Below are positions 47,233 to 64,000 of a stretch of DNA of 64,000 nucleotides, piece after piece. Below the pieces are notes generated by a model. That model saw nothing but the letters and a program-made list of their open reading frames with translations. It made no database searches and was not told where the DNA came from. The stretch spans positions 37,478-101,477 of the forward strand of contig JAZDHZ010000034.1 in NCBI GenBank assembly GCA_043805415.1, read 5' to 3'. The DNA is from Candidatus Omnitrophota bacterium. GTDB taxonomy: Bacteria > Omnitrophota > Gorgyraeia > B26-G9. The translations under genes were made by a program, and so were the position numbers. Every line of letters starts with the position of its first letter. Position 1 is the first letter of the stretch.

Positions 47233-47289
47233 GATCAACGGATTCAAACACAGAAAGACGTGTAAGATGAGCGTTAAGATCAATAGCCA

Positions 47290-47327
47290 AAAAGCAATTC
47301 CTTAAGAAAGGAATTGCTTTTTTTTGT
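47290..47327 (+). terminator. intrinsic terminator after etfA
   Basis: AAGCAATTCCTT-aagaa-AGGAATTGCTT is followed by T7. A second GC-rich palindrome GGCCAGGTC-GAG-ACCTGGCC lies at 47369-47389. Confidence 0.7.
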
Positions 47328-47439
47328 TCACCATGGATAAATAAATGAATATAAAACAAAATCCCGTAGGGCCAGGTCGAGACCTGGCCGAAACATAATC
47401 AAAAAATATGGCCGAAACAAATAAATTAGAAGAAGTAAA

Positions 47440-47450
47440 GGGGACGGTTC
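47440..47450 (+). repeat. GGGGACGGTTC(C/T)ATTT repeat family member
   Basis: Related copies occur at 48514, 49099 and 49897. The copies at 49099 and 49897 are each followed ~25 nt later by a GGGGTCAAGTCTCTA element. Confidence 0.7.
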
Positions 47451-47580
47451 TATTTAATTGAGAGAGTGGCGTTCCTCCGTCGTGCTTGTTCCTCGGTTTA
47501 TAAGGCGGGGCTATCCGTTTCTAAACCAAAGAAAATTAGATCACTTGGTTTTGAAGATGGATAACGTTGCGTGTTTACTC

Positions 47581-47625
47581 GTGAGCGGGGACGTTGTTTG
47601 ATAAATTGATTTATTTAAATAGTGA
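47581..47625 (+). repeat. 45-bp perfect direct repeat copy 1 (GTGAGCGGGGACGTTGTTTGATAAATTGATTTATTTAAATAGTGA)
   Basis: It is identical to 48463-48507. Similarity continues for a further ~40 nt (AAGGGGAYGGTT..TTTTTGG). Confidence 0.9.
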
Positions 47626-47742
47626 AAAAACTAAAAGGAATAAAGGGGATGGTTTTGTTTTTGGTAAACCATAAAATTTGCTTCCCGCATAAATCGGCGG
47701 GGCAAGCTGTTTGCCCTTCGACAAACTCAGGGTAAAAGCGCA

Positions 47743-47748
47743 AACGTT
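47743..47748 (+). promoter_or_regulatory. weaker AAACGTT upstream motif (GCGCAAACGTTATGTGAG) 22 nt before the RDD gene start
   Basis: It shares the CAAACGTTAT core with the motifs at 57828, 58159, 59755 and 60764. Confidence 0.35.
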
Positions 47749-47769
47749 ATGTGAGAAAAAATAATAAAT

Positions 47770-48483
47770 ATGAAAAAAGACTATAAAGAAAAAATATCGC
47801 AGTATACATTGGAAGAACTTATGGATGTTTCCATTCATATTGATAAGGAAAAGTTTCCTGATAGGTATGAAATGATTATTGCGGAGATTGAAGTTAGGAA
47901 GAATCAGCCAAAGGGTAGTTCAGAAGAACAAGATAAAAAACAAAGAATTTTTGCTGGATTCTGGATTAGATTTTGGGCATATGTTTTAGACATAATCCCG
48001 GTGCTATTATTATGGGTATTTTTATATAGGTTTTATTTTCAAGCAAAATCGGTTGTTACTCTATATTATGGAGTTTTTCCTCTGGGCTGGATTGCTTACA
48101 GAATTTATTTTCATGGTAGATGGGGGCAAACACTTGGAAAAATGGCAATGAAAATAAAAGTAGTTAATGTTGACTTTGGCAAAATTGATTATTATGCTGC
48201 TTTTAAAAGAGAAATTGTTAATATATTGATTGATTTAATCACAATAATTGTTGTAGTTGCAGCAATGAAATCTATTCCTTCAGTAAACTGGCTAGTTATG
48301 CCAGAAATAGAAAAGCAAAATGTAATTTTAAGGGCAAAAGATAAAATTAGTTTTATTGGATTGTTCTGGTTATATGCTGATATTATTTGTTTATTAATTA
48401 ATAAGCAAAAACGGTCGATACACGATTTTATTGGAAGCACAATAGTTGTAAGAGAAGAAGTAGTGAGCGGGGACGTTGTTTGA
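47770..48483 (+). CDS. RDD-family membrane protein
   Basis: It has the motifs WIRFWAYVLD, GQTLGKMAMKIKVV and RSIHDFIGSTIVV, with three to four TM helices. Confidence 0.6.
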   Translation: MKKDYKEKISQYTLEELMDVSIHIDKEKFPDRYEMIIAEIEVRKNQPKGSSEEQDKKQRIFAGFWIRFWAYVLDIIPVLLLWVFLYRFYFQAKSVVTLYYGVFPLGWIAYRIYFHGRWGQTLGKMAMKIKVVNVDFGKIDYYAAFKREIVNILIDLITIIVVVAAMKSIPSVNWLVMPEIEKQNVILRAKDKISFIGLFWLYADIICLLINKQKRSIHDFIGSTIVVREEVVSGDVV

Positions 48484-48507
48484 TAAATTGATTTATTTAA
48501 ATAGTGA
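48463..48507 (+). repeat. 45-bp perfect direct repeat copy 2, overlapping the last 7 codons of the RDD gene
   Basis: It is identical to 47581-47625. It encodes the ..VVSGDVV* tail of the RDD gene. Confidence 0.9.
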
Positions 48508-48580
48508 TTTTAAGGGGACGGTTATATTTTTTTGGAATAAATATATATATTTATTCATTCCAAACAAGAAGGAGAGCAAA

Positions 48581-49027
48581 ATGAAGAAGGTGATAGGTTT
48601 TATGGTCACAGTATTAGTGTTGGCAACGGGCATCGCATATGCTGCCATAGAAGAATATTATGAAGAAAAACCTTTAAAGATTCAGAAAGCTGACCCTTTT
48701 GATAATGACAAACAAATAAAAATTCGAGTGGGCGAAAAGATCATATTCAAAATCAAGATATATCAGGATGAATTCTTTGGCCAGACTACTATTAGTGCAA
48801 ATGCTAATATTGACAATACAACCAAACAGAAAGTCAAAGCCATCTATTCAATCTCGTTTCATGATAAGGATGGCAAGCTTGTCGCATGTCACCAGGGATC
48901 ATGGGACCTCGATGAAAATGATGATGTAAATTACGGAAGTGGCATTATCTACACAGATACCGCTTCGATTGCATCAGTTACAAATTACAAATTAAAAACA
49001 CAGGTGATTGAATCTAAAAAGGAATGA
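48581..49027 (+). CDS. small secreted protein of unknown function
   Basis: It has an AAGGAG RBS and a signal peptide (MKKVIGFMVTVLVLATGIAYA). The tracked ORF is longer, but the upstream part covers repeat DNA. Confidence 0.35.
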   Translation: MKKVIGFMVTVLVLATGIAYAAIEEYYEEKPLKIQKADPFDNDKQIKIRVGEKIIFKIKIYQDEFFGQTTISANANIDNTTKQKVKAIYSISFHDKDGKLVACHQGSWDLDENDDVNYGSGIIYTDTASIASVTNYKLKTQVIESKKE

Positions 49028-49098
49028 CCAAAAAAAGTGTAAATGGAGTCAGGTCTTGAATCTAGATAATGGACGAAAAAAGCAAAAAAAGGGGAAAA

Positions 49099-49151
49099 GG
49101 GGACGGTTCCATTTTCGGAGGAAAAACAGAGGGTCAAGTCTCTACTTGACT
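49099..49151 (+). repeat. composite repeat: GGGGACGGTTCCATTTTCGG followed by the palindrome GGTCAAG-tctcta-CTTGAC
   Basis: It is nearly identical in layout to 49897-49950. Confidence 0.7.
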
Positions 49152-49230
49152 ACAAGTAAAATTTATTGAGAAAGAGTGGAAGGCTAGGGGACGTAGTGAG
49201 CTAACCCGGGATTGACGGACACCAAGAAAA

Positions 49231-49268
49231 GGGGTCAAGTCTGTAATCTTGATATTTTTATAAACGTT
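49231..49268 (+). repeat. GGGGTCAAGTCTGTAATCTTGATATTTTTATAAACGTTTGACAC element
   Basis: It belongs to the GGGGTCAAGTCT family. It contains an AAACGTT core 43 nt upstream of the ATG at 49311. Confidence 0.7.
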
Positions 49269-49298
49269 TGACACTAATTTTTGTTTTAGCTTAAAGGT

Positions 49299-49829
49299 TT
49301 GATAGATAAAATGAGAGAAATTTATTACGCGATCTATAAAAATGCTGATTATAAAACAATGGTTATGGTAAGCTTAGCCGAAGCAATCATCTCCAAAAGA
49401 GGCAGATTTAATAAAGATAAATTTATTTTAAGTGATGAAATAGGTTTAAATCGGTTTGAGAAACAAATTTTAAGTAAAATATGTTTAAATAACTTTTGTT
49501 ATTTTCATATTTCAGATTACACTAAATGGATTGATTATTTGATTCAAGAATGTATAAAAAATAAATATTTTAAGAAGCTGCTTGTCTTGGGGCCAAAGCC
49601 AACAAAATATTTTAAGACAGAATTAAAAAAAAATTTAAAAAATTTCAATGAGGATATTATTGCCTATATTGACTCAAGGGAAATTAATTTGTTAATGAAG
49701 ATTAATAAGTCTATTTCCCAAATTAAATTGCCTGAATTTAGACAATTAATCAAAAAAAAAGATATTATGGCTGAAATGATGGCTGAAGTTATGGATAAGG
49801 GGTATTGGCTCGAGGCAGATAAGTTGTAG
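49299..49829 (+). CDS. hypothetical protein (cytoplasmic, Lys-rich)
   Basis: This is an ORF only. The alternative ATG start is at 49311. No recognisable domain was found. Confidence 0.3.
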   Translation: MIDKMREIYYAIYKNADYKTMVMVSLAEAIISKRGRFNKDKFILSDEIGLNRFEKQILSKICLNNFCYFHISDYTKWIDYLIQECIKNKYFKKLLVLGPKPTKYFKTELKKNLKNFNEDIIAYIDSREINLLMKINKSISQIKLPEFRQLIKKKDIMAEMMAEVMDKGYWLEADKL

Positions 49830-49896
49830 CAATAAAAGAAGATATTGAGGGGCGTAGTTTAAAGATTTAAAGTTATAGAAACAATGAAGGAAAAAA

Positions 49897-49965
49897 GGGA
49901 CGGTTCCATTTTCGGTGAAAGATAAGGGGTCAAGTCTCTAATCCTGACATTTTTAACGCTTAATG
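49897..49965 (+). repeat. composite repeat: GGGACGGTTCCATTTTCGG + GGGGTCAAGTCTCTAATCCTGAC + AACGCTTAATGC
   Basis: See 49099. It lies 35-100 nt upstream of the ORF at 50000. Confidence 0.7.
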
Positions 49966-49999
49966 CTAATTTCGTAATTTAAAATTTAAAGGATGAGAA

Positions 50000-51202
50000 A
50001 TGAGAAGAGTATTGCTTGTAATTTTATTAATTGGTGTTTTTTGTCCGTTTTCTTTAGCTCAGGAGCAAAATTCTGATTTCGATTTTAAGATTTTCTTAAC
50101 TCAACAGAGTGAAGAAATGGATTGGTGGAATGGGGTTCCTTCTCAATTTGGTCCGCATATTTCTGAAGTCAGTAGTGTTTCTAAAAAAGAAATTTTTAAA
50201 ATAATACCTATTTTCCGTAATTACGGTCTTGAGGATGGGGAAAAAGCAAACATTATATATAATGTTTCTATTTTAAAGCCAGATAATAGTATTTATGCAG
50301 AGATAAATGATCTTGAGGGGTGGAAGGGTAAAGTTAATGGGCCGTATTTGTTACCAGCGAAAAATAGATTAGTGGTTTGTTTTGAGCCTGAGGACACATT
50401 CGGTGAATATGCTATAAGAATAGAATCTTTTGATAAAATTAAAGATCAGAAAGTAGCTCATGAAGACAAAATTAATCTAGAAGAGTTTAAATTGCCTGAT
50501 TTAAAAGATGATGTAGATCTGTTTTTTACGTACAACTATAATCCTGACCCTGAAAAAGCCATGGCTTATTTTTTGAATTCTGCATACCCGTTTATAAATG
50601 AAAAAGGGCAAGTTGTATGGTCTGGGATATGGTTTTTTAAATGTGTTTTTGATGAAAATGATTTTCTAATTCCCCAAATCGTAAAATTTTTTAAAGATGA
50701 AGCTACTAAAAAGCAGAAAGAGAATATAATTTTACTATTCTATTTTTTAGGAAAAACGAAAGAGCTTGATTTAAAAGGGGATTTAGTAAAATATAGTGAA
50801 GGGTTTAAAAAAATAAAGGCTCCAAATCCTTACGATAAAATAGATAATCCTAGTCAGCTGGATATGCTATGGGGAGAGTTTTTTGCTACTGGTAGATTAA
50901 AACCAGTAAGGCAGATTATATCTTCATTCCAGCTTAGTGAATTCATGGGGACATTGGAAAAAATTAAGAAAAAAGAACTAGATGTTAATGAAAAATCTGT
51001 GTACCGCGAAGCAATGCTTGAAGCTACTTTCAGTTCTGCCCTTTGGTCTTTAGAAAGTAATTGCAATCAATCGAGCTTACTATATCAATATTGCGTTGGA
51101 CTTATTGAGTCTGATGAATTAAATGATAATGAAAAAGGCTATTTAGGAGCTATTTTAAACAGTGTATATGAGAAGAAGAAAAAAGAAGACAGAAAAGAAT
51201 AA
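50000..51202 (+). CDS. secreted hypothetical protein (400 aa)
   Basis: It has a signal peptide (MRRVLLVILLIGVFCPFSLAQE). No recognisable domain was found. Confidence 0.35.
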   Translation: MRRVLLVILLIGVFCPFSLAQEQNSDFDFKIFLTQQSEEMDWWNGVPSQFGPHISEVSSVSKKEIFKIIPIFRNYGLEDGEKANIIYNVSILKPDNSIYAEINDLEGWKGKVNGPYLLPAKNRLVVCFEPEDTFGEYAIRIESFDKIKDQKVAHEDKINLEEFKLPDLKDDVDLFFTYNYNPDPEKAMAYFLNSAYPFINEKGQVVWSGIWFFKCVFDENDFLIPQIVKFFKDEATKKQKENIILLFYFLGKTKELDLKGDLVKYSEGFKKIKAPNPYDKIDNPSQLDMLWGEFFATGRLKPVRQIISSFQLSEFMGTLEKIKKKELDVNEKSVYREAMLEATFSSALWSLESNCNQSSLLYQYCVGLIESDELNDNEKGYLGAILNSVYEKKKKEDRKE

Positions 51203-51220
51203 TAGGGTCAAATAAGAAAA

Positions 51221-51265
51221 GGGATCAAGTCTGTAATCTAGATATTTCCCTAAACGTTCAACGTT
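51221..51265 (+). repeat. GGGATCAAGTCTGTAATCTAGATATTTCCCTAAACGTTCAACGTT element
   Basis: It belongs to the GGGGTCAAGTCT family and has a doubled AACGTT core. It lies 27-40 nt upstream of the ATG at 51292. Confidence 0.7.
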
Positions 51266-51291
51266 AATTTTTACTCAAGTTTAAATGTTAT

Positions 51292-51885
51292 ATGCAAAAA
51301 ATAATAAAAATTACTTTTTTTGTCATTTTTTTTCAAAATGTCCTATGCAATCAGATATTTTGTTCTGAGAAATCACCTGAGCCGTTTGGGGTGGATGACA
51401 TTACACTTGCGGTCACAAATGGGCAGCCGTATATTTATCAGGCTGAAATTTCTGCTGAAAAAAAACTGCATAAATACCTTTGGCTAAGATGTGGGTTAGC
51501 AGGCATATTTGATTCCAATAAACCTGATCTGTTTGGAGGTATTACGCTGGGAGTCAGATTACATGGAAAGGCTTTTTTTGCTCCTTTTGTAGGAATCGGA
51601 AGTTTTTTGGGTGAATCTGCTCATTATAAAGATGCCGATCATGACGGAATTAACAATGACGGCGATGCCTGGACGGATGAACCGGGTGAGAAAAAAAGAG
51701 TTAATAACTTTATTTCTGCAATTTATCCTGAGATTGGTATGCAGATTAATATAGCCAAAGAAAAGAGTATTTCCGCTTTTGGAAGATATTATGTTTCAAC
51801 TGAGGGAAGAGATGATGATTCCTGGATGTGGGGATTTAGTTTTTCGGTTAAATTTGGGGCAGGCCTAAAAAATGAAAAAGATTGA
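51292..51885 (+). CDS. secreted protein with thrombospondin-type-3-like Asp-rich Ca-binding motif (DADHDGINNDGDAWTDE); possible small OM beta-barrel
   Basis: It has a signal peptide, a C-terminal aromatic residue (..FSVKF) and a DxDxDG motif. Confidence 0.3.
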   Translation: MQKIIKITFFVIFFQNVLCNQIFCSEKSPEPFGVDDITLAVTNGQPYIYQAEISAEKKLHKYLWLRCGLAGIFDSNKPDLFGGITLGVRLHGKAFFAPFVGIGSFLGESAHYKDADHDGINNDGDAWTDEPGEKKRVNNFISAIYPEIGMQINIAKEKSISAFGRYYVSTEGRDDDSWMWGFSFSVKFGAGLKNEKD

Positions 51886-52071
51886 CGAATTAAAAAAACT
51901 AGAGTCTTCAGAGGAGATTTTCCTAAGCGCTTAACGCTATCCGCTAAACACTGATTTTGCGGTTTTTTTTGGTAAATCATAAAATTTAGTGAAATAGGGG
52001 GCGTTGATTCAAACATATATAAAAGAAAATTATAGAGAAATAATAGTGTCAGATATTGAAAAAGGAGACAA

Positions 52072-52581
52072 GTGATGAATGAAAATCATCAAACAAATAA
52101 TAAAGGAATGTCTGATCTGGAGATAAAATCCCTTATCGTTAAACGCAATAATGATGCGCAGGAAATCGTTCGATCCCTAAATTCTCAGAGCATTATTAAT
52201 CATTTAATGAGTTCTGATCTAGCAACAAGTATGAGTATGAGTATATGGCTTGGACTGCATGATAATTTTAACTGTGCCCGAGGTCTTTTAGTTCATGTTC
52301 GATCAAAAGAATCCGAGCTAGTTTCTGATGCATATAAATCTTCGGGGGAAATTGTTGGACGATTCCGTTGTAATAACTGTGGTTTTGAGACTGGACTCGG
52401 AGTAAAATACTTTCAACAAAGGATAACCAAAGGAGAGCTTAGCTCTCCGATTAAACCTGAAGATCTTTTTCTTGGTGCAGCAGCTAGAAAATTATCGCAG
52501 CAAGTAATTGATCTACGTAGAGCACAAATTGAATCTCTTCGTTTAAAAGGATCGGACAAGGATGTTTTTCCCTCTCTCTAG
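52072..52581 (+). CDS. hypothetical protein
   Basis: This is an ORF with a GGAGA RBS. It contains an RCNNCG motif. No recognisable domain was found. Confidence 0.3.
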   Translation: MMNENHQTNNKGMSDLEIKSLIVKRNNDAQEIVRSLNSQSIINHLMSSDLATSMSMSIWLGLHDNFNCARGLLVHVRSKESELVSDAYKSSGEIVGRFRCNNCGFETGLGVKYFQQRITKGELSSPIKPEDLFLGAAARKLSQQVIDLRRAQIESLRLKGSDKDVFPSL

Positions 52582-52708
52582 GGAAAGGGGTCAAGTCTGT
52601 AATCTCAACATTTCTCTAATAGAAAGCAACGGTTAAAGGGGTTAAAAAGTGCCCGAATTATTGAGCTAGTACAACATCGCATAAAATTACAGTGGAATAG
52701 AACTAGAG
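52582..52708 (+). repeat. 127-bp perfect direct repeat, copy 1 (begins GGAAAGGGGTCAAGTCTGTAATCTCAAC)
   Basis: It is 100% identical to 57625-57751. A further shared TGAAAACTG follows a 10-bp indel. It starts right at the stop codon of the preceding ORF. Confidence 0.9.
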
Positions 52709-52724
52709 TGAAAACTGCGTAAGC

Positions 52725-52740
52725 GGGGTCAAACCTTGAC
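52725..52740 (+). repeat. GGGGTCAAACCTTGAC palindromic element
   Basis: It is a GTCAA-acc-TTGAC palindrome of the same family. Confidence 0.6.
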
Positions 52741-52783
52741 TTTGGACAAAATGTGAAATATCAGGCGTGATAATAACTTCTAA

Positions 52784-53026
52784 AGTGGAGGTCTGACCCT
52801 GAGATTTTATGGGGAGATACCGGCGACAACTAAAGAGTCGGACGCTATGAGTAAAGCGCTGAAAAATAATAACTTTAAATTTGTCGGATCAACAATTTGT
52901 TACGCGTTTATGCAGGCAGTAGGGATGGTCAATGACCATTTAACTACATGTTATAGATATAATAGAGTACCTAAGGCAAAAAAACAGCGGTTAACGGATA
53001 GGGATAGGAGAAAAATAGTTGGATGA
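52784..53026 (+). pseudogene. tag: 3' remnant (~80 codons) of DNA-3-methyladenine glycosylase I gene
   Basis: The in-frame translation ..ESDAMSKALKNNNFKFVGSTICYAFMQAVGMVNDHLTTCY.. matches the Tag C-terminus (SDALSKALKKRGFKFVGTTICYSFMQACGLVNDH). There is no N-terminal two-thirds. Its stop overlaps the treZ start. Confidence 0.7.
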
Positions 53027-57624: not shown

Positions 57625-57751
57625 GGAAAGGGGTCAAGTCTGTAATCTCAACATTTCTCTAATAGAAAGCAACGGTTAAAGGGGTTAAAAAGTGCCCGAA
57701 TTATTGAGCTAGTACAACATCGCATAAAATTACAGTGGAATAGAACTAGAG
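57625..57751 (+). repeat. 127-bp perfect direct repeat, copy 2
   Basis: It is identical to 52582-52708. It starts 8 nt after the treY stop. Confidence 0.9.
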
Positions 57752-57827: not shown

Positions 57828-57844
57828 CTGAGCTCAAACGTTAT
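57828..57844 (+). promoter_or_regulatory. conserved upstream motif CTGAGCTCAAACGTTAT (TGAGCTCA + AACGTT palindromes)
   Basis: It lies 19 nt upstream of the ATG at 57863, followed by an AGGAGG RBS. The same motif occurs at 58159, 59755, 60764 and, degenerate, 63257. Confidence 0.6.
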
Positions 57845-57862: not shown

Positions 57863-58105
57863 ATGGCTTGTCCGATAGAAGGTAGCTGTACATTTCATAA
57901 TAATCAAATACATATGTTGGAAGAACGGAAAAAAATAATACAAGTAAGGTTTTGTCTTAGTAGTTATTCGCAATGTGCTCGTTATAAAGTATATGCATAT
58001 TTTAAATCTACACATCAGGTTCCTCCAGGTTTATACCCAAATAATTTTGAGCAAGCTAATGAACTGATCCAAAACGATAGGCGGAAACATGGCGGCGGGC
58101 ATTAA
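57863..58105 (+). CDS. small Cys-containing protein (80 aa; CPIEGSC..C..C)
   Basis: This is an ORF with a strong RBS and the conserved upstream motif. No recognisable family was found. Confidence 0.35.
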   Translation: MACPIEGSCTFHNNQIHMLEERKKIIQVRFCLSSYSQCARYKVYAYFKSTHQVPPGLYPNNFEQANELIQNDRRKHGGGH

Positions 58106-58158: not shown

Positions 58159-58174
58159 TGAGCTCAAACGTTAT
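58159..58174 (+). promoter_or_regulatory. conserved upstream motif TGAGCTCAAACGTTAT
   Basis: It lies 39 nt upstream of the ATG at 58213, followed by an AAGGAG RBS. Confidence 0.6.
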
Positions 58175-58212
58175 ATAAATTTTTCGCTAGTTAAAATAAT
58201 TTAAGGAGACAA

Positions 58213-59742
58213 ATGTTCCATATTAGGCTTATTGATCGATTCTTTGTTTTATTGATTAAGATTATTGATAAAGCGCAGGATAAGATTATCAAGAATTATG
58301 CTGTGTTTACTTTGATTGTGAGTAGGGCTCCGCAAACGGTCGGAGCGGAAGCTTGCTGGTATAGAGCAATCAAAGAATTTATGATTGCTTATAAAGATGT
58401 TCCGGCTTATAGAGAGTTTCTGAAGAAGAGTGGCTGGAAATGCGAATCCAGGGATGCTAAACGTATTTTTGAATCATTGCCTTTAATGGATAAAGCTAAT
58501 TATATTCTTCCTTATAGTACAGAGGATAGATGTCTTAACGGTAAGTTCTTTGACAAAGGGGTTGTTATTGATGAGTCTTCAGGATCAACAGGTATTCCTT
58601 ATAACTGGGTAAGAAGCCAGGAAGAAAGGGAAATTGTTAAACAGCTGATTGGGGTGTATCTGCGATACTGTTATGGTAATCAGAATTTTATTATTCTGAA
58701 TACATTCAGTATGGGAGCCTGGGCAACTGGGTTTAATATGGCTTTAGCAGCACAGTCATTGGGTGTGGTTAAGTCTACTGGTCCGGATGTGGATAAAATA
58801 TTAAGAACGCTTGAATTTTTTAGCGGTAAATATCCGTATATTCTTAATGGATATCCGCCATTTTTAAAATATCTGTTTGATGAAGGAGATAAGCGGGGAT
58901 TTAAGTGGAAAGATTATAATATCCATGTGCTTGTCGGCGGAGAAGGCATGTCCGAAGGATTAAGGGATTATCTGCTTAGGTACGCGAAGACGGTTTATTC
59001 CGGTTATGGGGCTTCTGATTTAGAGATTGGCATCGCAGGTGAGAATCCTTTGACTGTTATGATCAGGAAGTTATGCCTTAAAGATCCTGAGTTAAAAAAC
59101 ACGCTTTTTGGCGAAGATCACCGCATGCCCATGCTTTTTCAGTATAATCCTTTGGATCATTTTATTGAAATAATCCAAAAAGAAATAGTTGTGACCATAA
59201 GTAAGCCTTGGACGCTTTCTCCCAGGATAAGATATAATATCAAGGATGAAGGGGGCATGATTACTTTTGATCAGATGAAAGAAAAGCTGAAAGCGCATAA
59301 TGTTGATTTATTGGAATTGGAACTGGAATGTAAATATCCGCGTTGGTATGTACCGTTTTTATTCATATACGGCAGAAAAGACAGTACTGTATCAGTTATG
59401 GGAGCAAATATATACCCTGAGGATGTGGAAAGTGTAATATATTCAGATTTGATGCTGGCACAGAATATTAATTCATTTTCAATATCACTGGAAGAGGATA
59501 CTCAAGGCAATCCGCATCCTTGTTTTGAATTTGAATTACTGGATATAGAGCAAAAATCCCGGGTTGAAAAGAAATTAAGTGAATTAATGTCATCCGGTCT
59601 GGCTAAATTAAGTCTGGATTATAAGAAGGCTTTGGAAGAGTATCCGCAGGCACTTGAGCCGATTATCAGGATTTTTGAGTTAAATCAAGGGCCGTTTAAG
59701 GAAAATCAAAGGCGGATCAAAAGACGCTATGTTAAGAGCTAG
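58213..59742 (+). CDS. adenylate-forming enzyme of the PaaK/CapK/F390-synthetase-like (phenylacetate-CoA ligase) family
   Basis: It has the A1 motif ESSGSTGIPY (compare SSGTTGKP). The C-terminal ~509 aa match this family, with an N-terminal extension. Confidence 0.5.
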   Translation: MFHIRLIDRFFVLLIKIIDKAQDKIIKNYAVFTLIVSRAPQTVGAEACWYRAIKEFMIAYKDVPAYREFLKKSGWKCESRDAKRIFESLPLMDKANYILPYSTEDRCLNGKFFDKGVVIDESSGSTGIPYNWVRSQEEREIVKQLIGVYLRYCYGNQNFIILNTFSMGAWATGFNMALAAQSLGVVKSTGPDVDKILRTLEFFSGKYPYILNGYPPFLKYLFDEGDKRGFKWKDYNIHVLVGGEGMSEGLRDYLLRYAKTVYSGYGASDLEIGIAGENPLTVMIRKLCLKDPELKNTLFGEDHRMPMLFQYNPLDHFIEIIQKEIVVTISKPWTLSPRIRYNIKDEGGMITFDQMKEKLKAHNVDLLELELECKYPRWYVPFLFIYGRKDSTVSVMGANIYPEDVESVIYSDLMLAQNINSFSISLEEDTQGNPHPCFEFELLDIEQKSRVEKKLSELMSSGLAKLSLDYKKALEEYPQALEPIIRIFELNQGPFKENQRRIKRRYVKS

Positions 59743-59754
59743 GGTTGGATAGCT

Positions 59755-59776
59755 CTGCCTGAGCGCAAAACGTTAT
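59755..59776 (+). promoter_or_regulatory. conserved upstream motif CTGCCTGAGCGCAAAACGTTAT preceded by a stop-codon hairpin AGAGCTA-N8-TAGCTCT
   Basis: It lies 30 nt upstream of the ATG at 59806, followed by an AGGAGG RBS. Confidence 0.6.
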
Positions 59777-59805
59777 GTGTTGTATCACTTGAATAAGGAG
59801 GGGTT

Positions 59806-60690
59806 ATGTCTGTATCTTTTAATGAAGAATTAAAACAGTCTAAGGTGCAAGAAGTAGTAGGACTCCCAATCAATAAGGAAATTATTTTTTCCAATCATAA
59901 AAATGTATATAAAAAAAGAATTGAAAAACGTCAATCAAGATTATTAAAAAAAATTGCTTTTTTAAAGCCATTCTTGTCTGGTGATGAAAATATTATAATG
60001 ATTACAACTGCTTGTTCTCCGATGTCCATTACCGAGCAGTTTCTTGTTGGTTGGATGATTTTTTATCTAAAACGGTCGCTTTTAGTATTTACTAATAAGC
60101 GGATTTTCCATATTCCAACTAAAACTGATTATTCGTATAGAAATTCGATCGCGCAGATTTTTTATGAGGATTGTCAAACGATAACTGTTCGAAGTAGGAG
60201 CTTGATTTGTAAATATAAGAATAATATAAAAGAACAGTTTCATTATATTGAAAGTAGCTGCATAAAAAAAATCAAATCGCTTATAAAAGATTTGACTGGG
60301 ACTGGGGAGAACGCCAGTAAATATCATAGGCGGACACATATTTGTCCTCGTTGTGCTCATGAGCTTGAACAGAATAAATATATGTGTTTAAATTGCCAGC
60401 TTGTTTTTTTAAACAAAAAAGACTCTGATAAAATTTCTTGGATTTACCCTGGAGGTGGTTATTTTTATACAAGGCATCCATTTCTTGGTCTAGGCGATGC
60501 AATTGTACAGTTGATTCTAATTATTTGGGTTGTTGATGCTTTAGTTACTGTTATCACTAAAGGTGTTGAAACTATAGGAATTCTGGTTTTTTCCACAATT
60601 TTACTGGTATTTGAAAAACTGATGACTGTATATGAAGCAACACATTTTATCAGTGAATACATCCCTATTGAAAAAAACTTAGGGAAATAG
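59806..60690 (+). CDS. membrane protein with bacterial PH (bPH_2/YdbS-like) domain, zinc ribbon (CPRCAHE..CLNCQ) and 2 C-terminal TM helices
   Basis: ENIIMITTACSP..LLVFTNKRIFHI resembles a bPH domain. It has a CxxC..CxxC zinc ribbon and hydrophobic C-terminal segments. Confidence 0.4.
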   Translation: MSVSFNEELKQSKVQEVVGLPINKEIIFSNHKNVYKKRIEKRQSRLLKKIAFLKPFLSGDENIIMITTACSPMSITEQFLVGWMIFYLKRSLLVFTNKRIFHIPTKTDYSYRNSIAQIFYEDCQTITVRSRSLICKYKNNIKEQFHYIESSCIKKIKSLIKDLTGTGENASKYHRRTHICPRCAHELEQNKYMCLNCQLVFLNKKDSDKISWIYPGGGYFYTRHPFLGLGDAIVQLILIIWVVDALVTVITKGVETIGILVFSTILLVFEKLMTVYEATHFISEYIPIEKNLGK

Positions 60691-60763
60691 TAATTTGTGT
60701 AAATTTATAAAAAATCACTTTAGCTAACTGGAGTGCGCGCGCAAATGGAGTTCAACCCAGTAG

Positions 60764-60778
60764 CTGAGCTCAAACGTT
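60764..60778 (+). promoter_or_regulatory. conserved upstream motif CTGAGCTCAAACGTT
   Basis: It lies 45 nt upstream of the ATG at 60823. Confidence 0.55.
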
Positions 60779-60822
60779 CGGCGCGCAATAAGCATGAAAT
60801 GTCTTTGCGGTGCTAAAAGGAT

Positions 60823-61974
60823 ATGAGTATGAAAAGTATCTGTAGGTCGGGAACAGTCTGTTTATTGCTGGGTGTTTTTCTTTTTTTCAACATTTCTGAG
60901 CTAAGAGCAGAAGCACCCCAGCCCTTGTTCAATGTCGGCTATCAGGTTCTTGATCTCAAATATATAAAGGACAATCAGGAGCAAAGTCTTACTGTGGCTG
61001 TCTGGTATCCGACTGCGCAACAGCCAAAGACATACAACTACGGCGGGCCAACAAACGGCAATGTTGCTGTAGACGCAACACCTTATGCCAAAGCCGGACC
61101 ATATCCTTTATTGGTGTTTTCGCACGGGTTCGGGGGCAGTGGACTTGGCTCTATGTTTTTCACTGAGACTCTTGCTGCTCTTGGCTGGATTGTCGCCTGC
61201 CCGGATCACCATGACAAATATTCAGCTGTCCGCATCCGGACCGGACAAAATCAAAACCTCGACCGATTGGGGTTTATGAAGCAAGGCAAAGAGATAGCAT
61301 CTTCCGGCCCTGAAGACCGCGGCAAGTATTTTTACCGCCTGGATGAGATGAAGCTTGTGCTGGACGGCATGCAGGCTTCCGGCATATTCGGGCAATTGAT
61401 TGACCCAGACCGGATTGCTGTGGGCGGACATTCTTTTGGCGGATTCACGGCCTTGGGACTCTGCGGGACGATTAAGGAACGCCGCGATCTTCGTATTAAG
61501 GCTTTGCTGTTGTTTTCAACCGGTGCCGGGGGGTATCTTTACACAGAAGAGGAACTTAGCGCAGTGCGGATTCCCTGTATGCTGTTTATGGGTCAAAGAG
61601 AAGAAAAACAAAGCCGCGGCTCCCACAAAATGTCGGAGCTGTCAGCTAAGATATTTGAAAATTTATCCGGGCCGAAGTACTTCCTGGAAGTAAAGGGAGC
61701 CAGCCATTTTTCGTTTAATAATTGTTTTGCAAAAAATTTGCGGACAAAACTGCTGAGTGGCACGAAAAAGCAGTTTGAAGTTATTAGAAAATACTCGATT
61801 GCTTTTTTGGAAGAGTATATTGCAGAAAGAAAAGACTTTGGTCATTTGCTGGAACAGCGTGACCCGCTGCTTACACGCTATCTCAGGGAGCCTGTTTTAG
61901 ACGCATCCAAACAAGGTTTGGCGGACGATACCCAACCAGACGTTTCAGCGGACGAGGACAAGCCGCGTGACTAA
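60823..61974 (+). CDS. secreted alpha/beta hydrolase (dienelactone hydrolase / PAF-acetylhydrolase / PETase-like)
   Basis: It has a signal peptide, FSHGFGGSG and the nucleophile elbow GGHSFGG. Confidence 0.55.
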   Translation: MSMKSICRSGTVCLLLGVFLFFNISELRAEAPQPLFNVGYQVLDLKYIKDNQEQSLTVAVWYPTAQQPKTYNYGGPTNGNVAVDATPYAKAGPYPLLVFSHGFGGSGLGSMFFTETLAALGWIVACPDHHDKYSAVRIRTGQNQNLDRLGFMKQGKEIASSGPEDRGKYFYRLDEMKLVLDGMQASGIFGQLIDPDRIAVGGHSFGGFTALGLCGTIKERRDLRIKALLLFSTGAGGYLYTEEELSAVRIPCMLFMGQREEKQSRGSHKMSELSAKIFENLSGPKYFLEVKGASHFSFNNCFAKNLRTKLLSGTKKQFEVIRKYSIAFLEEYIAERKDFGHLLEQRDPLLTRYLREPVLDASKQGLADDTQPDVSADEDKPRD

Positions 61975-62006
61975 ACTTCACGTTAACAGAATAAATAAGG
62001 AGAAAA

Positions 62007-63206
62007 GTGGAAAAATTAAAGTTTGGAGCTTTGATTGAAAAAAGTATAGCCAGGACAAAGCAGATGCTGCTAAAGCCCTTTTCTTTTAGGAAATGGATGT
62101 GGCTGCTGTTTATCGCGTATATGGCAGGAGCCATGAGCGGAGGAACAAACCTTAATTATAATTTTAGTGGAAACAATAGTTCTGATCAGACTCAAACCGT
62201 ATCAGAGTCCGAAGACATTGCGAAAGATCCGGATCAGGCAGAGCCTAATGATGAGCCAGAATCCAAGCAGGCAACTGAAACAGATATATTTATTAGATTT
62301 GTGGCAGATAAGGATTTTAAGGCTAAAGAATTCTTCGCGGAACTTAAAAAAAAGGCAGTATCTGAAGAATTTAGACATTTTCTTTTGCCGATTGCCATCG
62401 GTGTATTTGTTTTGTTTGGGATTATAATTATTTTTACCTGGTTATACAGCAGGTTTTTATTTATCTGGTTTGAAGCTATTGTTAAAGATCAGACGGCGAT
62501 TAAAGAGCCTTTTAAGCGGTATAAGCAACAGGGTTCATCAATTTTTAAAGTATCCATCTTGATGATGTTTTTTGGGCTGATTCTCTTTGGGCTTATTGTT
62601 TTATGGATGCTTAGTATATTAAGAAGCACTGGAGTTTGCGCTGATTTTAATAACCTTAATTTTAAAGAAGTCCTTAAAGTATTGCAAGTTCCCTTAATTA
62701 CTCTTTTGGGTTGGTTTATTTTTTCTAATTTATGGGATTTTTTCCTTTCTAAGTTTATAGTTGTTTTCATGGCAGTAAAGCAAACGACTTTCTGGCCTGG
62801 GTTCAGGGAACTTATCAGAGTTCTGAGCGAACATAAAAAAGATATGTTTTTCTTTATTTTGATGTCTATTCTGCTGGGAATAGCAGTGTGGATTATATAT
62901 ATAGTAGTATTTTTAGCGGGTATTTTAATATCATTATTAATCGGGGGAGTTTGCTTGGGACTTATATATTTCATAATTGTGTTTTTGCTGAAATTAAAGG
63001 TTCTGTTTAATGTCTTAGCAATTATTTTTGCTGTGTGTTTTGCTGTATGCGTAGTTTTATTTATTACTTGTATCGGTTTGCCGTTTGCTGTGTTTTTTAA
63101 GAATTTCTTATTATATTTTATTTCAAATTTAAACTGCGGGTATACGCCAATTCCTTTGATTGAAGAGCCGGATGAGGCAAAACCGGAAAACAAAGAAGCA
63201 ATCTAA
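62007..63206 (+). CDS. polytopic membrane protein with acidic N-terminal linker
   Basis: It has a GTG start with an AAGGAG RBS and at least six hydrophobic helices in the C-terminal half. An antisense 234-aa ORF on the opposite strand was judged spurious. Confidence 0.4.
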   Translation: MEKLKFGALIEKSIARTKQMLLKPFSFRKWMWLLFIAYMAGAMSGGTNLNYNFSGNNSSDQTQTVSESEDIAKDPDQAEPNDEPESKQATETDIFIRFVADKDFKAKEFFAELKKKAVSEEFRHFLLPIAIGVFVLFGIIIIFTWLYSRFLFIWFEAIVKDQTAIKEPFKRYKQQGSSIFKVSILMMFFGLILFGLIVLWMLSILRSTGVCADFNNLNFKEVLKVLQVPLITLLGWFIFSNLWDFFLSKFIVVFMAVKQTTFWPGFRELIRVLSEHKKDMFFFILMSILLGIAVWIIYIVVFLAGILISLLIGGVCLGLIYFIIVFLLKLKVLFNVLAIIFAVCFAVCVVLFITCIGLPFAVFFKNFLLYFISNLNCGYTPIPLIEEPDEAKPENKEAI

Positions 63207-63256
63207 AAGATTAGCTGGCTAGTGACTGCGCGCGGAAGAAGCCAAGATAAATATTC

Positions 63257-63272
63257 GCGCTCAAGTGTTATG
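63257..63272 (+). promoter_or_regulatory. degenerate copy of the upstream motif (CGCGCTCAAGTGTTATG)
   Basis: It lies 25 nt upstream of the ATG at 63298. Confidence 0.4.
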
Positions 63273-63297
63273 TAAAAAAACTAAAAAAGGAAACAGA

Positions 63298-64000
63298 ATG
63301 CGGAAAATATTATTTACAATTATTTTATTACTATTTTCAGTTAATTCCTATGCGGAAAACACTTCAAAAGAGGATGACTATATTTATCCGGTAAATAGTA
63401 TGTATAAACAAGCGGTTCAAAATACTATTCAAGCCGCAATCCAAGAGCAAGGAGAAGTTCATACTGCTTTAAATGAGATTTTAGCATCAAGGTGGGCAGA
63501 TAATCAGTTGGTGTTTGACGCGATCAATAATAATAAACAGGCGATTAATCTGTTTAAACAAGCGGCATTGCAGGAAAGTAATCAGGCGATGTTTACGCAA
63601 AGACCAAAAGAGATCACATTTGATATGCCGATGTCGAGTTGCTCTAAAGAAATGCTGCTTTTTAAATTAGTGCTTGCTGAAGGACTTATGTTTGAATCAA
63701 AAGAAGAATATCCTAAAGCAATAGAGAATTATATTGCCGCAATCAGATTTATAATGCACTGTTCGCGGGAGGAATTTAAAACATTGGTTTCGCAGTTAAT
63801 GGAAAGAGCTTATTTTAATAAAGCTTATAATTGTCTTTGTAATACAATTTCAAATGATAAGTTCAACAATAAATATCATCAGGAATTGCTCAAGTATTTG
63901 AATCTGATTTATCAAGAACAGGATTTTTTTGAAAGTGCTTTTAAAACTGAATTGCTTGTTTCTAAAAGTCTGGTGAGAATGATAGGAAAAGAGCATTCAA
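63298..64000 (+). CDS. secreted hypothetical protein, 3' end outside window
   Basis: It has an AAAGGA RBS and a signal peptide (MRKILFTIILLLFSVNSYA). The frame is open to the window edge. Confidence 0.3.
   Translation, partial: MRKILFTIILLLFSVNSYAENTSKEDDYIYPVNSMYKQAVQNTIQAAIQEQGEVHTALNEILASRWADNQLVFDAINNNKQAINLFKQAALQESNQAMFTQRPKEITFDMPMSSCSKEMLLFKLVLAEGLMFESKEEYPKAIENYIAAIRFIMHCSREEFKTLVSQLMERAYFNKAYNCLCNTISNDKFNNKYHQELLKYLNLIYQEQDFFESAFKTELLVSKSLVRMIGKEHS

What the first reader, a model, noticed from the sequence alone, without database searches (positions are those of the whole stretch)
47233..64000. Cassette-like accessory gene array downstream of etfA, built from co-oriented unknown genes and mosaic short repeats
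From the etfA terminator onward, at least 15 consecutive ORFs all read on the + strand and almost none has a housekeeping assignment. They comprise an RDD membrane protein, three secreted unknowns, two cytoplasmic unknowns, a Cys-rich 80-aa protein and a PaaK-like ligase. A bPH/zinc-ribbon membrane protein, a secreted alpha/beta hydrolase and polytopic membrane proteins follow. The spacers between them are assembled from recurring modules: GGGGACGGTTCC, GGGGTCAAGTCT palindromes, a 45-bp perfect direct repeat and a 127-bp perfect direct repeat. An AAACGTT-containing motif sits 20-55 bp before almost every start codon. None of these modules occurs in the preceding 47 kb of core operons. A housekeeping gene, tag, survives only as a 3' stump inside the array. 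This shows that the region was built by insertion and recombination rather than inherited as an operon. The organisation of one gene per unit, same orientation and repeat-bounded units resembles integron cassette arrays (a CALIN-type cluster of attC sites lacking an integrase) or another recombinase-driven hypervariable island. No recombinase lies inside the window.
Basis: partly seen in the sequence, partly recalled or inferred. Interest (0 to 1): 0.85.

Follow-up and report, generated by a model that had tools for sequence, protein, structure and literature searches.

The report
Variable gene region studded with REP repeats
The stretch after etfA in this Candidatus Omnitrophota genome is a fast-changing accessory region whose gene spacers carry transposase-associated palindromes (REP elements) and other short dispersed repeats; it is not an integron, and it belongs to a known kind of feature.

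Summary
The repeats, the co-oriented ORFs and the tag stump are all real. The integron reading does not hold.

- **Synteny:** Gene order with eight or more Omnitrophota relatives is collinear up to the etfA stop codon and ends there. In several relatives smc follows etfA directly. In others 1.3 kb to more than 9.5 kb of unrelated genes lie in between. This is an insertion or rearrangement hotspot.
- **Composition:** Gene-by-gene GC (0.27-0.48) is mosaic.
- **GGGGTCAAGTCT modules:** These are REP elements, a GTAG-tagged hairpin. The same sequence flanks, in inverted orientation, a REP-associated tyrosine transposase gene with a DnaA-like HTH (TIRYT type) in relatives. It is dispersed in 35 metagenome contigs.
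- **Other modules:** Other spacer modules recur in the same order in another Omnitrophota spacer, as in BIME mosaics.
- **GAGCTCAAACGTTAT motif:** It precedes the orthologous gene in the closest relative, so it is regulatory and not a recombination site.
- **attC test:** No attC-like cores or hairpins were found, and etfA occupies the position where intI would sit.
- **Unexplained:** Gene units flanked by 45-170 bp direct repeats recur across these genomes. The PaaK-like ligase sits in five different contexts. The 127-bp repeat equals what I recall as metaSPAdes' largest default k, so it needs read-level confirmation.

The parts
46045..47232 (+). etfA (ferredoxin-fused EtfA), the last gene of the conserved syntenic block and the left boundary of the variable region
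   Evidence: NCBIfam EtfA-type hits. It is 89% identical to L001. Collinearity with L001-L008 ends at its stop codon.
47289..47322 (+). etfA terminator hairpin followed by a T-run
   Evidence: 15-pair stem found by the terminator scan. A similar hairpin follows etfA in L001.
47436..47556 (+). Element A: a non-coding repeat of about 120 nt that begins with the GGGGACGGTTC head
   Evidence: 93-95% identical to two direct copies in the L001 island. No Rfam match. Its fold is not better than shuffles, z -1.2.
47581..47625 (+). 45-bp perfect direct repeat, copy 1
47661..47680 (+). TTGGTAAACCATAAAATTTG module; a second, diverged copy lies at 51969-51988
   Evidence: Identical 20-26 nt in L102/L103 and L077.
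47770..48483 (+). RDD-family membrane protein gene, GC 0.308. Its last codons lie inside copy 2 of the 45-bp repeat.
   Evidence: PF06271 E 2e-22; GC
48463..48507 (+). 45-bp perfect direct repeat, copy 2
48581..49027 (+). 148-aa gene with a signal-peptide-like N-terminus, no family hit
49130..49154 (-). Canonical REP element. On the - strand it reads GTAG-TCAAGT-AGAG-ACTTGA-CCC, that is a GTAG tag followed by a 7-bp hairpin.
   Evidence: 25-36 nt are 97-100% identical to the inverted repeats flanking the transposase gene in L007 and L079 and to dispersed copies in 35 metagenome loci.
49224..49260 (+). Variant REP module, family D1 reference copy (AAGAAAAGGGGTCAAGTCTGTAATCTTGATATTTTTA). It keeps the REP 5' arm and loop but has lost the GTAG tag. 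Its hairpin with a U-rich tail resembles a terminator. The other four copies are listed as separate parts.
   Evidence: Family D1 has 5 copies at 81-100% identity to this reference. The same 18-mer core is present in L077.
49311..49829 (+). 172-aa unknown gene, GC 0.266, the lowest in the window
49919..49955 (+). Variant REP module copy, preceded by an A-head at 49892-49915
50000..51202 (+). 400-aa secreted unknown gene, rare and patchily distributed
   Evidence: 32 homologues among 5.8e9 proteins, spread across several phyla. In relatives it lies in other contexts.
51214..51250 (+). Variant REP module copy. Together with a promoter-like tract it forms a 99-nt repeat shared with 49224-49322.
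   Evidence: families D1 and D4
51292..51885 (+). 197-aa unknown gene with a signal-peptide-like N-terminus
52072..52581 (+). 169-aa unknown gene
52582..52708 (+). 127-bp perfect direct repeat, copy 1. It begins with a variant REP.
52725..52800 (.). REPIN-like long imperfect hairpin: GGGGTCAAACCT paired with AGGTCTGACCC. It lies immediately 5' of the tag stump.
   Evidence: ssDNA fold -12.9 kcal/mol, z -3.1, reached by 2 of 200 shuffles.
52805..53026 (+). 3' stump of tag (DNA-3-methyladenine glycosylase I). Its stop codon overlaps the treZ start.
   Evidence: PF03352 positions 129-176 of 177, E 1.7e-21.
53023..54849 (+). treZ (malto-oligosyltrehalose trehalohydrolase)
   Evidence: Pfam and source names. 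In relatives it is preceded by treX/glgX, not by tag.
54846..57617 (+). treY (malto-oligosyltrehalose synthase)
   Evidence: Pfam; paired with treZ in L106-L109.
57625..57751 (+). 127-bp perfect direct repeat, copy 2
57829..57844 (+). TGAGCTCAAACGTTAT regulatory motif upstream of the 80-aa gene. Other copies lie at 58159-58174, 59760-59776, 60765-60780, 47735-47750 and, diverged, at 63257-63271.
   Evidence: It is conserved upstream of the orthologous gene in L104, immediately before the RBS in both genomes. A degenerate form matches only 8 times in 1.36 Mb, and every copy listed lies on the coding strand, five of the six just upstream of an ORF.
57863..58105 (+). 80-aa Cys-rich protein gene
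   Evidence: 71% identical ortholog in L104.
58213..59742 (+). PaaK-like adenylate-forming ligase gene. It behaves as a single-gene unit across genomes.
   Evidence: NCBIfam PaaK E 1.4e-11, below the curated cut-off. It lies in five different contexts. Homology with L110 (88.5% nt) spans only 58195-59745.
59806..60690 (+). 294-aa membrane protein with a zinc-ribbon-like segment, no family hit, GC 0.312
60823..61974 (+). Secreted alpha/beta hydrolase (PAF-AH/PETase-like), GC 0.479, the highest in the window
62007..63206 (+). DUF7544 polytopic membrane protein
   Evidence: PF24400 E 5.8e-35; 64% identical ortholog in L104.
63298..64000 (+). Secreted protein gene that runs off the window end

Best explanation
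The region from 47.2 to 64 kb is a plasticity zone of a Candidatus Omnitrophota chromosome. It starts exactly at the 3' end of a conserved acyl-CoA dehydrogenase-etfB-etfA block.

In this lineage the junction after etfA, which is ancestrally followed by smc, repeatedly receives unrelated genes. Here it holds at least three compositionally different parts:
- low-GC rare genes (47.7-52.6 kb);
- a tag'-treZ-treY block (52.7-57.6 kb);
- a set of lineage-typical accessory genes (57.8-64 kb).

The spacers are a BIME-like mosaic of short dispersed repeats. The GGGGTCAAGTCT family is a REP element, a GTAG-tagged hairpin with a GGGGWSAS-like head. It belongs to a REP-associated Y1 (HUH) tyrosine transposase that carries a DnaA-like HTH (TnpA-REP subclass 2.1, also called TIRYT). 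The window has one canonical copy, one REPIN-like doublet and five tag-less variants. The variants sit just after stop codons and probably act as terminators or mRNA-end hairpins. Other modules are lineage-restricted non-coding repeats: element A with its GGGGACGGTTC head, the GGTAAACC module and GAGCTAACCCGGGATTGACGGACAC.

The GAGCTCAAACGTTAT motif is a promoter- or operator-type signal conserved in relatives.

Shown here: the synteny break, the REP identity and its link to the transposase, the conservation of the regulatory motif, the absence of attC-like structure, and the mosaic composition.

Inferred: the dispersed repeats supply portable homology. Recombination at them, or single-crossover integration of circularised fragments, inserted gene blocks and left the 45-bp and 127-bp flanking direct repeats and the truncated tag.
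For: Synteny:
- tblastn and tblastx show window 36-47.2 kb collinear with L001-L008, ending at 47,23x.
- No array protein matches any of the 61 etfA loci.
- smc plus a GAF-GGDEF gene follow etfA directly in L006, L008, L013 and L026.
- In other relatives they follow after 1.3 kb (L002), 2 kb (L007) or 5 kb (L003) of unrelated genes. L001 has more than 9.5 kb of defence-type genes at this site.

Composition:
- Array genes range from GC 0.266 to 0.479, against 0.333-0.464 in the core.

REP:
- Window 49130-49165 is 97% identical to the sequence upstream of the L007 transposase gene, and its reverse complement overlaps that gene's 3' end.
- The transposase matches PF01797 plus Bac_DnaA_C, and NF047646 REP-associated tyrosine transposase with E 1e-19.
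- The pattern GGGTCAAGTNNNNACTTGACTAC is found in 35 metagenome stretches. Nine hold a homologue of the transposase; four full-length genes are flanked by inverted copies 1,040-1,090 nt apart. The other 26 hold REPs alone, including doublets.
- The published definitions match: GTAG tag, REPtrons, TIRYT inverted repeats with GGGG[AT][CG]A[CG], and a DnaA_C-like domain in subclass 2.1.2 (PMC3733652, PMC6006769).

Mosaic:
- One L077 spacer carries the variant REP core, the A-head, the GGTAAACC module and the pre-operator plus operator, in the same order as in the window.

Regulatory motif:
- It lies immediately before the RBS of the cys80 ortholog in both the window and L104.
- A degenerate form matches 8 times in 1.36 Mb. 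Every listed copy is on the coding strand and five of the six lie just upstream of an ORF.
- The ligase promoter region is partly conserved in L110.

Integron tests negative.
No phage or defence family hits.
Against: - Only one canonical REP copy lies in the window, and no transposase gene lies within 64 kb. Genome-wide REP abundance in this organism is unknown.
- The five variant copies lack the GTAG tag, and some lack a good stem. Their REP ancestry rests on 12-15 shared bases.
- All repeat copies but one are on the + strand. That fits a transcription-linked role but is unusual for freely transposing REPINs.
- The right end of the region is not in the window, so an island inserted before smc cannot be told apart from a larger rearrangement.
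- The recombination role of the repeats is inference only.
- The 127-bp repeat has the same length as what I recall to be the largest default k-mer of metaSPAdes, so it may reflect an assembly-graph loop. The assembler of the source MAG is unknown.
Confidence: 0.7

Rival explanations
1. Integron-type cassette array: a CALIN, that is a cluster of attC sites without an integrase, whose units are moved by an IntI integrase encoded elsewhere.
For: One gene per unit, a single orientation, recurrent spacer modules and many unknown genes. An AACGTT core contains AAC and GTT.
Against: - Strict R''/R' core pairs 54-144 nt apart occur once per strand, with no pairing of the ends, and that site is next to the tag stump.
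- 12 of 13 spacer folds are no better than shuffles; the exception is a REPIN-like inverted repeat without AAC/GTT ends.
- The gene upstream of the first unit is the conserved etfA, not intI or attI.
- The palindromic module is tied to a Y1 transposase.
- The AAACGTT motif is conserved before an orthologous gene in a relative, in an unrelated context.
- The attC covariance model itself could not be run.
Confidence: 0.03
2. Breakpoint of a large chromosomal rearrangement rather than an island. At least the right half (57.8-64 kb and beyond) is a native chromosomal segment that was moved next to etfA, and smc now lies far away.
For: - cys80, the 400-aa gene and DUF7544 have 58-71% identical orthologs within 10 kb of each other on another contig of the closest relative's genome, among ordinary genes.
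- The ligase is widely conserved in the phylum.
- The regulatory motif is shared with that relative.
- smc is not reached by the window end.
Against: - Relatives show graded insertions (0, 1.3, 2, 5 and more than 9.5 kb) between etfA and smc, which fits a hotspot.
- The order and neighbours of the three shared genes differ from the relative.
- Per-gene GC is mosaic even within the right half, 0.31 to 0.48.
- This rival partly overlaps the main explanation.
Confidence: 0.2
3. Metagenome assembly artefact: the junctions and the perfect direct repeats come from chimeric joining of co-occurring strains in a de Bruijn graph.
For: - The source is a MAG.
- The longest repeat is exactly 127 bp, which I recall as the largest default k of metaSPAdes (my own knowledge, not tested).
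- The segment 52582-57751 has the form of a graph loop, with a 127-bp overlap at both ends.
Against: - A path that passes the repeat twice needs reads for both the treY-to-repeat and the repeat-to-tag' junctions.
- Similar but diverged (91-99%) flanking repeats occur in independent assemblies by other assemblers: L001, L007, L062, L065 and L110.
- The synteny break at etfA is seen in every relative.
Confidence: 0.08
4. A conserved operon with a repeated promoter.
For: All genes are co-oriented and spacers are short in the right half. A shared upstream motif is present.
Against: - None of the array genes follows etfA in any of 61 related loci.
- The closest relatives of the ligase, the 400-aa gene and treZ have other neighbours.
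- Composition is mosaic.
- Terminator-like hairpins follow several genes.
Confidence: 0.02

Closest known systems
REP elements and REPtrons: REP-associated tyrosine transposases (RAYT / TnpA-REP), in particular subclass 2.1.2, also called TIRYT, with a Bac_DnaA_C-like C-terminal HTH (PMC3733652, PMC6006769, PMC3116915)
   Same: - A palindrome of about 25 nt with a GTAG tag at one end and a GGGG[AT][CG]A-type head at the other.
- Inverted copies flank a single Y1 HUH transposase gene, with the downstream copy overlapping the gene's 3' end.
- The same sequence is dispersed without the gene, singly and as inverted doublets like REPINs.
   Different: - For subclass 2.1, Quentin et al. 2018 reported no REP-like sequences near the gene and Di Nocera et al. 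2013 reported plain inverted repeats. Here the flanking repeat is a GTAG-tagged hairpin and is also dispersed.
- In the window itself only one canonical copy is present. The five variants have lost the tag and all point the same way.
- No transposase gene is in the window.
BIMEs (bacterial interspersed mosaic elements) of enterobacteria
   Same: Intergenic spacers are assembled from REPs plus other short conserved motifs in a recurrent order, and lie between convergent or co-directional transcription units.
   Different: - The motifs are unrelated in sequence.
- Copy number seen here is low and is concentrated in one region.
- No binding by IHF, gyrase or other proteins is known for them.
- This comparison rests on my own knowledge of BIMEs.
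Genomic islands and plasticity zones at conserved chromosomal hotspots
   Same: - Sharp loss of synteny at a fixed point.
- Different cargo in each relative, including a defence island in L001.
- Atypical and heterogeneous GC, gene stumps and mobile-element genes nearby.
   Different: - No tRNA gene, no integrase, and no flanking att repeats for the island as a whole.
- The direct repeats bracket single blocks inside it.
Integron cassette arrays and CALIN (PMC4889954)
   Same: Co-oriented, mostly unknown genes with about one gene per unit and recurrent spacer sequences.
   Different: - No attC-like sites by core-motif and folding tests.
- No integrase.
- Promoter-like conserved motifs lie before genes.
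- Units are bracketed by identical direct repeats, which integron recombination does not produce.

Membership tests
Integron / CALIN | At least two attC sites less than 4 kb apart on one strand, each an imperfect hairpin of about 57-141 nt with R'' (RYYYAAC) and R' (GTTRRRY) cores (PMC4889954) | tested here: not met
   A core-pair scan gives one candidate per strand, with no pairing of the ends. Of 13 spacer ssDNA folds, 12 are no better than shuffles. The curated attC covariance model is not among the tools, so this is a proxy test.
Integron / CALIN | IntI-type tyrosine integrase and attI upstream of the first cassette (for a complete integron) | tested here: not met
   The upstream neighbour is etfA, preceded by etfB and an acyl-CoA dehydrogenase, and is conserved in all relatives. 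No integrase domain was found in the array proteins. DNA beyond 64 kb is not available.
Integron / CALIN | Cassettes are mostly promoterless and are excised or inserted as an ORF plus attC | tested here: inconclusive
   A conserved promoter- or operator-like motif precedes at least six genes and is kept in a relative. The ligase unit shared with L110 runs from -18 to +3 and includes part of the promoter region. Expression was not measured.
REP / RAYT (REPtron; TnpA-REP subclass 2.1 / TIRYT) | Short imperfect palindrome (20-40 nt) tagged with GTAG at one end | tested here: met
   Window 49130-49154 reads GTAG-TCAAGT-AGAG-ACTTGA-CCC on the - strand, with a 7-bp stem.
REP / RAYT (REPtron; TnpA-REP subclass 2.1 / TIRYT) | The same repeat flanks a Y1 HUH transposase gene in inverted orientation | tested here: met
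   Seen in L007, L079, L086, L088 and L095. The gene matches PF01797 with E 1.5e-15 and NF047646 with E 1e-19 (70.9 bits, just under the curated cut-off of 80), plus a DnaA_C-like HTH. This was met in relatives. No such gene is in this window.
REP / RAYT (REPtron; TnpA-REP subclass 2.1 / TIRYT) | Many dispersed intergenic copies within the host genome | not testable with these tools
   Only 64 kb of the genome is held: 1 canonical copy, 1 doublet and 5 variants, all in 49-57.7 kb. Dispersal is shown across metagenome contigs, with 26 of 35 loci lacking the gene.
REP / RAYT (REPtron; TnpA-REP subclass 2.1 / TIRYT) | Head motif GGGG[AT][CG]A[CG] in the flanking repeats of TIRYT genes | tested here: inconclusive
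   The head is GGGGTCAA, which matches 7 of 8 positions because the last base is A. The second module family starts GGGGACGG, also 7 of 8.
Genomic island / plasticity zone | Variable gene content at one conserved chromosomal site among relatives | tested here: met
Genomic island / plasticity zone | Composition different from the core genome | tested here: met
   Per-gene GC is 0.266-0.479 in the array and 0.333-0.464 in the core. GC3 is 0.235-0.495 in the array against 0.374 +/- 0.041 in the core.
Genomic island / plasticity zone | Own integrase, a tRNA or tmRNA target, and att direct repeats at both island ends | tested here: not met
   No tRNA or tmRNA gene. No integrase in the array. The right end is outside the window.

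The most novel reading that the evidence does not exclude
Omnitrophota may have an undescribed way of relocating single genes or small gene blocks that carry no mobility gene of their own.

The PaaK-like ligase is found in five unrelated contexts. Against an 88.5% identical copy, homology ends at the gene's own boundaries. In two genomes the ligase unit is bracketed by 91-126 bp direct repeats, and in L062 the repeat is a duplicated 3' end of ftsK. The same signature is seen at etfA in L007 (168 bp), in L001 (79 bp), and twice in this window (45 and 127 bp).

The driver could be the trans-acting Y1 REP transposase working on same-strand hairpins, or integration of circularised fragments. Either would make the array a true cassette system of a non-integron kind.
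Probability: 0.1. Interest if true: 0.75.

Novelty: new member of a known kind. Interest (0 to 1): 0.35.

Why it matters
- The result removes a false lead: there is no integron in this candidate phylum.
- It documents a REP and REP-transposase (TIRYT-type) system in Omnitrophota. I found no description of one for this phylum in the searchable literature.
- It pins down a concrete insertion hotspot, the etfA|smc junction. In relatives this site carries defence genes, so it is useful for mining accessory and defence functions in uncultured PVC-group bacteria.
- The recurrent gene units flanked by long direct repeats are a testable hint of how these small genomes shuffle genes.

Tried and rejected
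- **Source contig look-ups:** Exact-protein look-ups failed for five proteins. The source exists as an NCBI MAG contig of 169,549 bp but could not be fetched, so the window could not be extended.
- **Rfam:** Permissive scans of 46-64 kb and of the L001 island gave no credible RNA family.
- **Element A as a structured RNA:** The fold is not better than shuffles.
- **tRNA or tmRNA target:** None found.
- **Defence system or prophage:** No PADLOC or PHROGs hits for the array proteins.
- **sigma-70 and terminator scans:** These were not informative; the counts were at or below those of shuffles.
- **AAACGTT motif as an ECF or sigma-54 promoter:** No conserved -35 or -24 element at the expected spacing, by inspection. 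As a pure palindromic operator, only one copy is a perfect 14-bp palindrome and the right half is better conserved. Its exact role stays open.
- **tag-treZ adjacency in relatives:** Not found; relatives have treX/glgX before treZ.
- **Covariance model of the REP:** I did not build one, because the copies were collected with an exact stem pattern and so would not test the variants fairly.

Full report
**1. What is there**

The window comes from a Candidatus Omnitrophota bacterium. EtfA (46045-47232) is 89% identical to that of MAG JAHITY01 (L001) and 75-79% identical to several other Omnitrophota MAGs. Array proteins are 100% identical to NCBI MAG proteins MFH1062748.1 and MFH1062753.1, which lie on a 169,549-bp contig.

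After etfA there are 14 intact + strand ORFs and one stump:
- an RDD-family protein;
- five proteins with no family hit (148, 172, 400, 197 and 169 aa);
- a tag 3' stump;
- treZ and treY;
- an 80-aa Cys-rich protein;
- a distant PaaK-like ligase;
- a 294-aa membrane protein;
- a secreted alpha/beta hydrolase;
- a DUF7544 membrane protein;
- a truncated last ORF (family assignments).

They are absent from the first 47 kb, although that part has about 5 kb of intergenic DNA.

Two statements are overstated. First, co-orientation holds for the whole window from 22.5 kb onward, so it is not a property of the array. Second, exact AAACGTT precedes 7 of 14 starts, not almost every one.

**2. The region is variable**

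Window 36-47.2 kb is collinear with L001-L008, and the similarity stops within a few bases of the etfA stop codon. No array protein has a tblastn match in any of the 61 etfA loci.

In L006, L008, L013 and L026, etfA is followed directly by smc and a divergent GAF-GGDEF gene. In L002, L007 and L003, 1.3, 2 and 5 kb of unrelated genes lie between etfA and smc. In L001, more than 9.5 kb follow: a KAP NTPase, an AbiJ-like protein, an OLD-family ATPase with a UvrD helicase, and an IS3-type HTH protein at the contig end. The etfA|smc junction is therefore a hotspot.

Within the window, per-gene GC runs from 0.266 to 0.479. Core genes range from 0.333 to 0.464, so the region is a mosaic at the gene level.

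The 400-aa protein has only 32 homologues among 5.8 billion proteins, spread over several phyla. The tag stump matches Pfam Adenine_glyco positions 129-176 of 177, and its stop codon overlaps the treZ start. It begins immediately after a 76-nt inverted-repeat hairpin.

**3. What the spacer repeats are**

*The REP element.* In L007 the 2-kb insert after etfA contains a 327-aa gene. It has a Y1 transposase domain and a Bac_DnaA_C-like HTH. Its best NCBIfam match is REP-associated tyrosine transposase, E 1e-19 over the whole profile and slightly under the curated cut-off.

This gene is preceded by GGGTCAAGTCTCTACTTGACTAC, and its 3' end overlaps the reverse complement, GTAGTCAAGTAGAGACTTGACCC. 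Window 49130-49165 matches the upstream copy at 97% over 36 nt.

A scan of public metagenome contigs for GGGTCAAGTNNNNACTTGACTAC returned 35 stretches. Nine carry a homologue of the transposase. In L079, L086, L088 and L095 the gene is flanked by inverted copies 1,040-1,090 nt apart. The other 26 stretches have the repeat alone, some as inverted doublets.

This is the published anatomy of a REPtron:
- a GTAG-tagged palindrome flanks a single Y1 transposase gene and is dispersed elsewhere (PMC3733652);
- the DnaA_C-like extension and a GGGG[AT][CG]A[CG] head are the marks of TnpA-REP subclass 2.1 / TIRYT (PMC3733652 and PMC6006769).

*The variants.* The five GGGGTCAAGTCTGTAATC copies in the window keep the head, the 5' arm and the loop. 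They have lost the tag. They lie right after stop codons and are followed by a T-rich tract.

*The other modules.* These are lineage-restricted dispersed repeats:
- Element A (47436-47556), whose 5' end is the GGGGACGGTTC head, is 93-95% identical to two direct copies in the L001 island.
- The GGTAAACC module occurs in L102 and L077.
- GAGCTAACCCGGGATTGACGGACAC occurs in L083.
- One spacer of L077 holds the variant REP core, the A-head, the GGTAAACC module and the tract AATAACGCTGTGCGTTTC...TGAGCTCAAA, in the same order as the window.

This arrangement, REPs combined with other short motifs in a set order, resembles the BIMEs of enterobacteria. That comparison rests on my own knowledge.

**4. 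The AAACGTT motif**

The longer form TGAGCTCAAACGTTAT lies 20-44 nt before six starts. In the closest relative's genome (L104, the same MAG as L001), TGAGTTCAAATATTAT precedes the ortholog of the 80-aa gene, immediately before its RBS as in the window, and a further copy precedes another gene.

A degenerate form of the motif matches only 8 times in 1.36 Mb. Every copy listed is on the coding strand, and five of the six lie just upstream of an ORF. The ligase upstream region of L110 keeps the CGTT(A/T)TATAAAT part.

The motif is thus a conserved cis-regulatory element, probably overlapping a -10 box. It is not a cassette boundary. Its factor is unknown.

**5. The integron test**

Defining features were taken from PMC4889954.
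- Paired RYYYAAC/GTTRRRY cores 54-144 nt apart occur once per strand in the array, with no pairing of the ends.
- Thirteen spacer segments were folded as ssDNA. Only 52709-52810 stands out (z -3.1), and it is the REPIN-like inverted repeat.
- The position upstream of the first unit is occupied by etfA.
- Rfam, PADLOC and PHROGs gave nothing, and no tRNA gene is present.
- The attC covariance model could not be run, so this remains a proxy test. Every proxy is negative, however, and the repeats have a better explanation.

**6. What remains unexplained**

Some array genes behave as separate units across genomes. The ligase, 70-79% identical in many Omnitrophota contigs, has different neighbours in L062, L063, L065 and L110. 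Against L110 (88.5% nt identity), homology covers only 58195-59745, from 18 nt before the start to 3 nt after the stop.

Orthologs of the 80-aa gene, the 400-aa gene and DUF7544 lie within 10 kb of each other on another contig of the closest relative. Their order and their neighbours differ from the window.

Long direct repeats bracket gene units repeatedly:
- 45 bp around the RDD gene and 127 bp around tag'-treZ-treY, in the window;
- 79 bp in L001;
- 168 bp in L007, a duplicated etfA 3' end around the REPtron insert;
- 126 bp in L062, a duplicated ftsK 3' end around the ligase plus a miaB-like fragment;
- 91 bp around the ligase in L110;
- 107 bp in L065.

In all there are 18 such pairs in 1.33 Mb. 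Single-crossover integration of circular fragments at a shared sequence would produce this pattern. So would some replication-based rearrangements. Neither is shown.

The 127-bp repeat is exactly what I recall as the largest default k of metaSPAdes (my own knowledge). The assembler of the source is unknown, so this repeat needs read-level confirmation.

**7. Verdict**

The broad interpretation, a region built by insertion and recombination, is supported. The integron analogy is not.

The best description is a plasticity zone whose spacers carry REP/TIRYT-type repeats and other dispersed motifs, plus a lineage-conserved regulatory motif. This is a new member of known kinds, with a modest open question about how single genes relocate in these genomes.

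Noticed in passing
window 12812-12840, 13240-13279, 22384-12412 region (22384-22412), 32179-32210, 32324-32352, 39335-39380: Core intergenic spacers carry tandem arrays of different heptamers (GCTAATA/TAGCTCA, ACTATTG, CAATACT x4.1 perfect, GTGTCTT, CTAATAG). These are a different repeat class from those in the array and are reminiscent of cyanobacterial STRR heptamer repeats (my own recollection).
   Followed up: partly
L001:13364-20243: At the same etfA-downstream site the closest relative carries a defence-type island: a KAP NTPase, an AbiJ N-terminal-domain protein and an OLD-family ATPase with TOPRIM next to a UvrD helicase (Gabija-like pair). An IS3-type HTH gene sits at the contig end.
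   Followed up: partly
L007:11017-11184 and 12979-13146: The last 168 nt of etfA are duplicated (93% identity) on either side of a 1.8-kb insert. The insert holds a 195-aa secreted protein gene and the REP-transposase-REP unit. A run of TATAC/TATTC-type short tandem repeats lies between the REP and the stump.
   Followed up: partly
L062:9495-9620 and 11633-11758: The 3' end of ftsK (gamma domain) is duplicated (126 nt, 91%) around an insert made of the ligase gene and an N-terminal fragment of a MiaB-like gene. It is another gene-stump-plus-duplication junction, like tag' in the window.
   Followed up: partly
L007:13323-17276 (also L002, L003, L006, L008): The SMC protein next to the hotspot carries a carbohydrate-binding module (PF16561 AMPK1_CBM, E 2e-12; PF02922 CBM_48) just after the hinge. 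This is an unusual insertion for an SMC.
   Followed up: no
window 57863-58105: The 80-aa Cys-rich ORF seems to have no protein accession in the source record, because the accession numbers from the 400-aa protein to the ligase leave no slot for it (inferred). It nevertheless has a 71% identical ortholog with a conserved upstream motif in L104, so it is probably a real gene.
   Followed up: partly
L110:2782-3463: In the close relative, a nucleotidyltransferase/HepT (MNT-HEPN type) toxin-antitoxin pair lies upstream of the ligase unit.
   Followed up: no
window 21709-21876: Two tandem copies of an 84-nt unit (83% identity) lie inside the - strand ORF 21078-22097, probably an internal protein repeat.
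   Followed up: no
window 47368-47389: A perfect 20-nt palindrome, GGCCAGGTCGAGACCTGGCC, lies between the etfA terminator and element A. It is another hairpin element and was not matched to any repeat family here.
   Followed up: no
window 60733-60797 and 63229-63261: GC-rich inverted repeats (TGCGCGCGC...GCGCGCA and GCGCGCG...CGCGC) bracket the regulatory motif before the hydrolase gene and before the last gene. They are unusual in a 38% GC genome.
   Followed up: no
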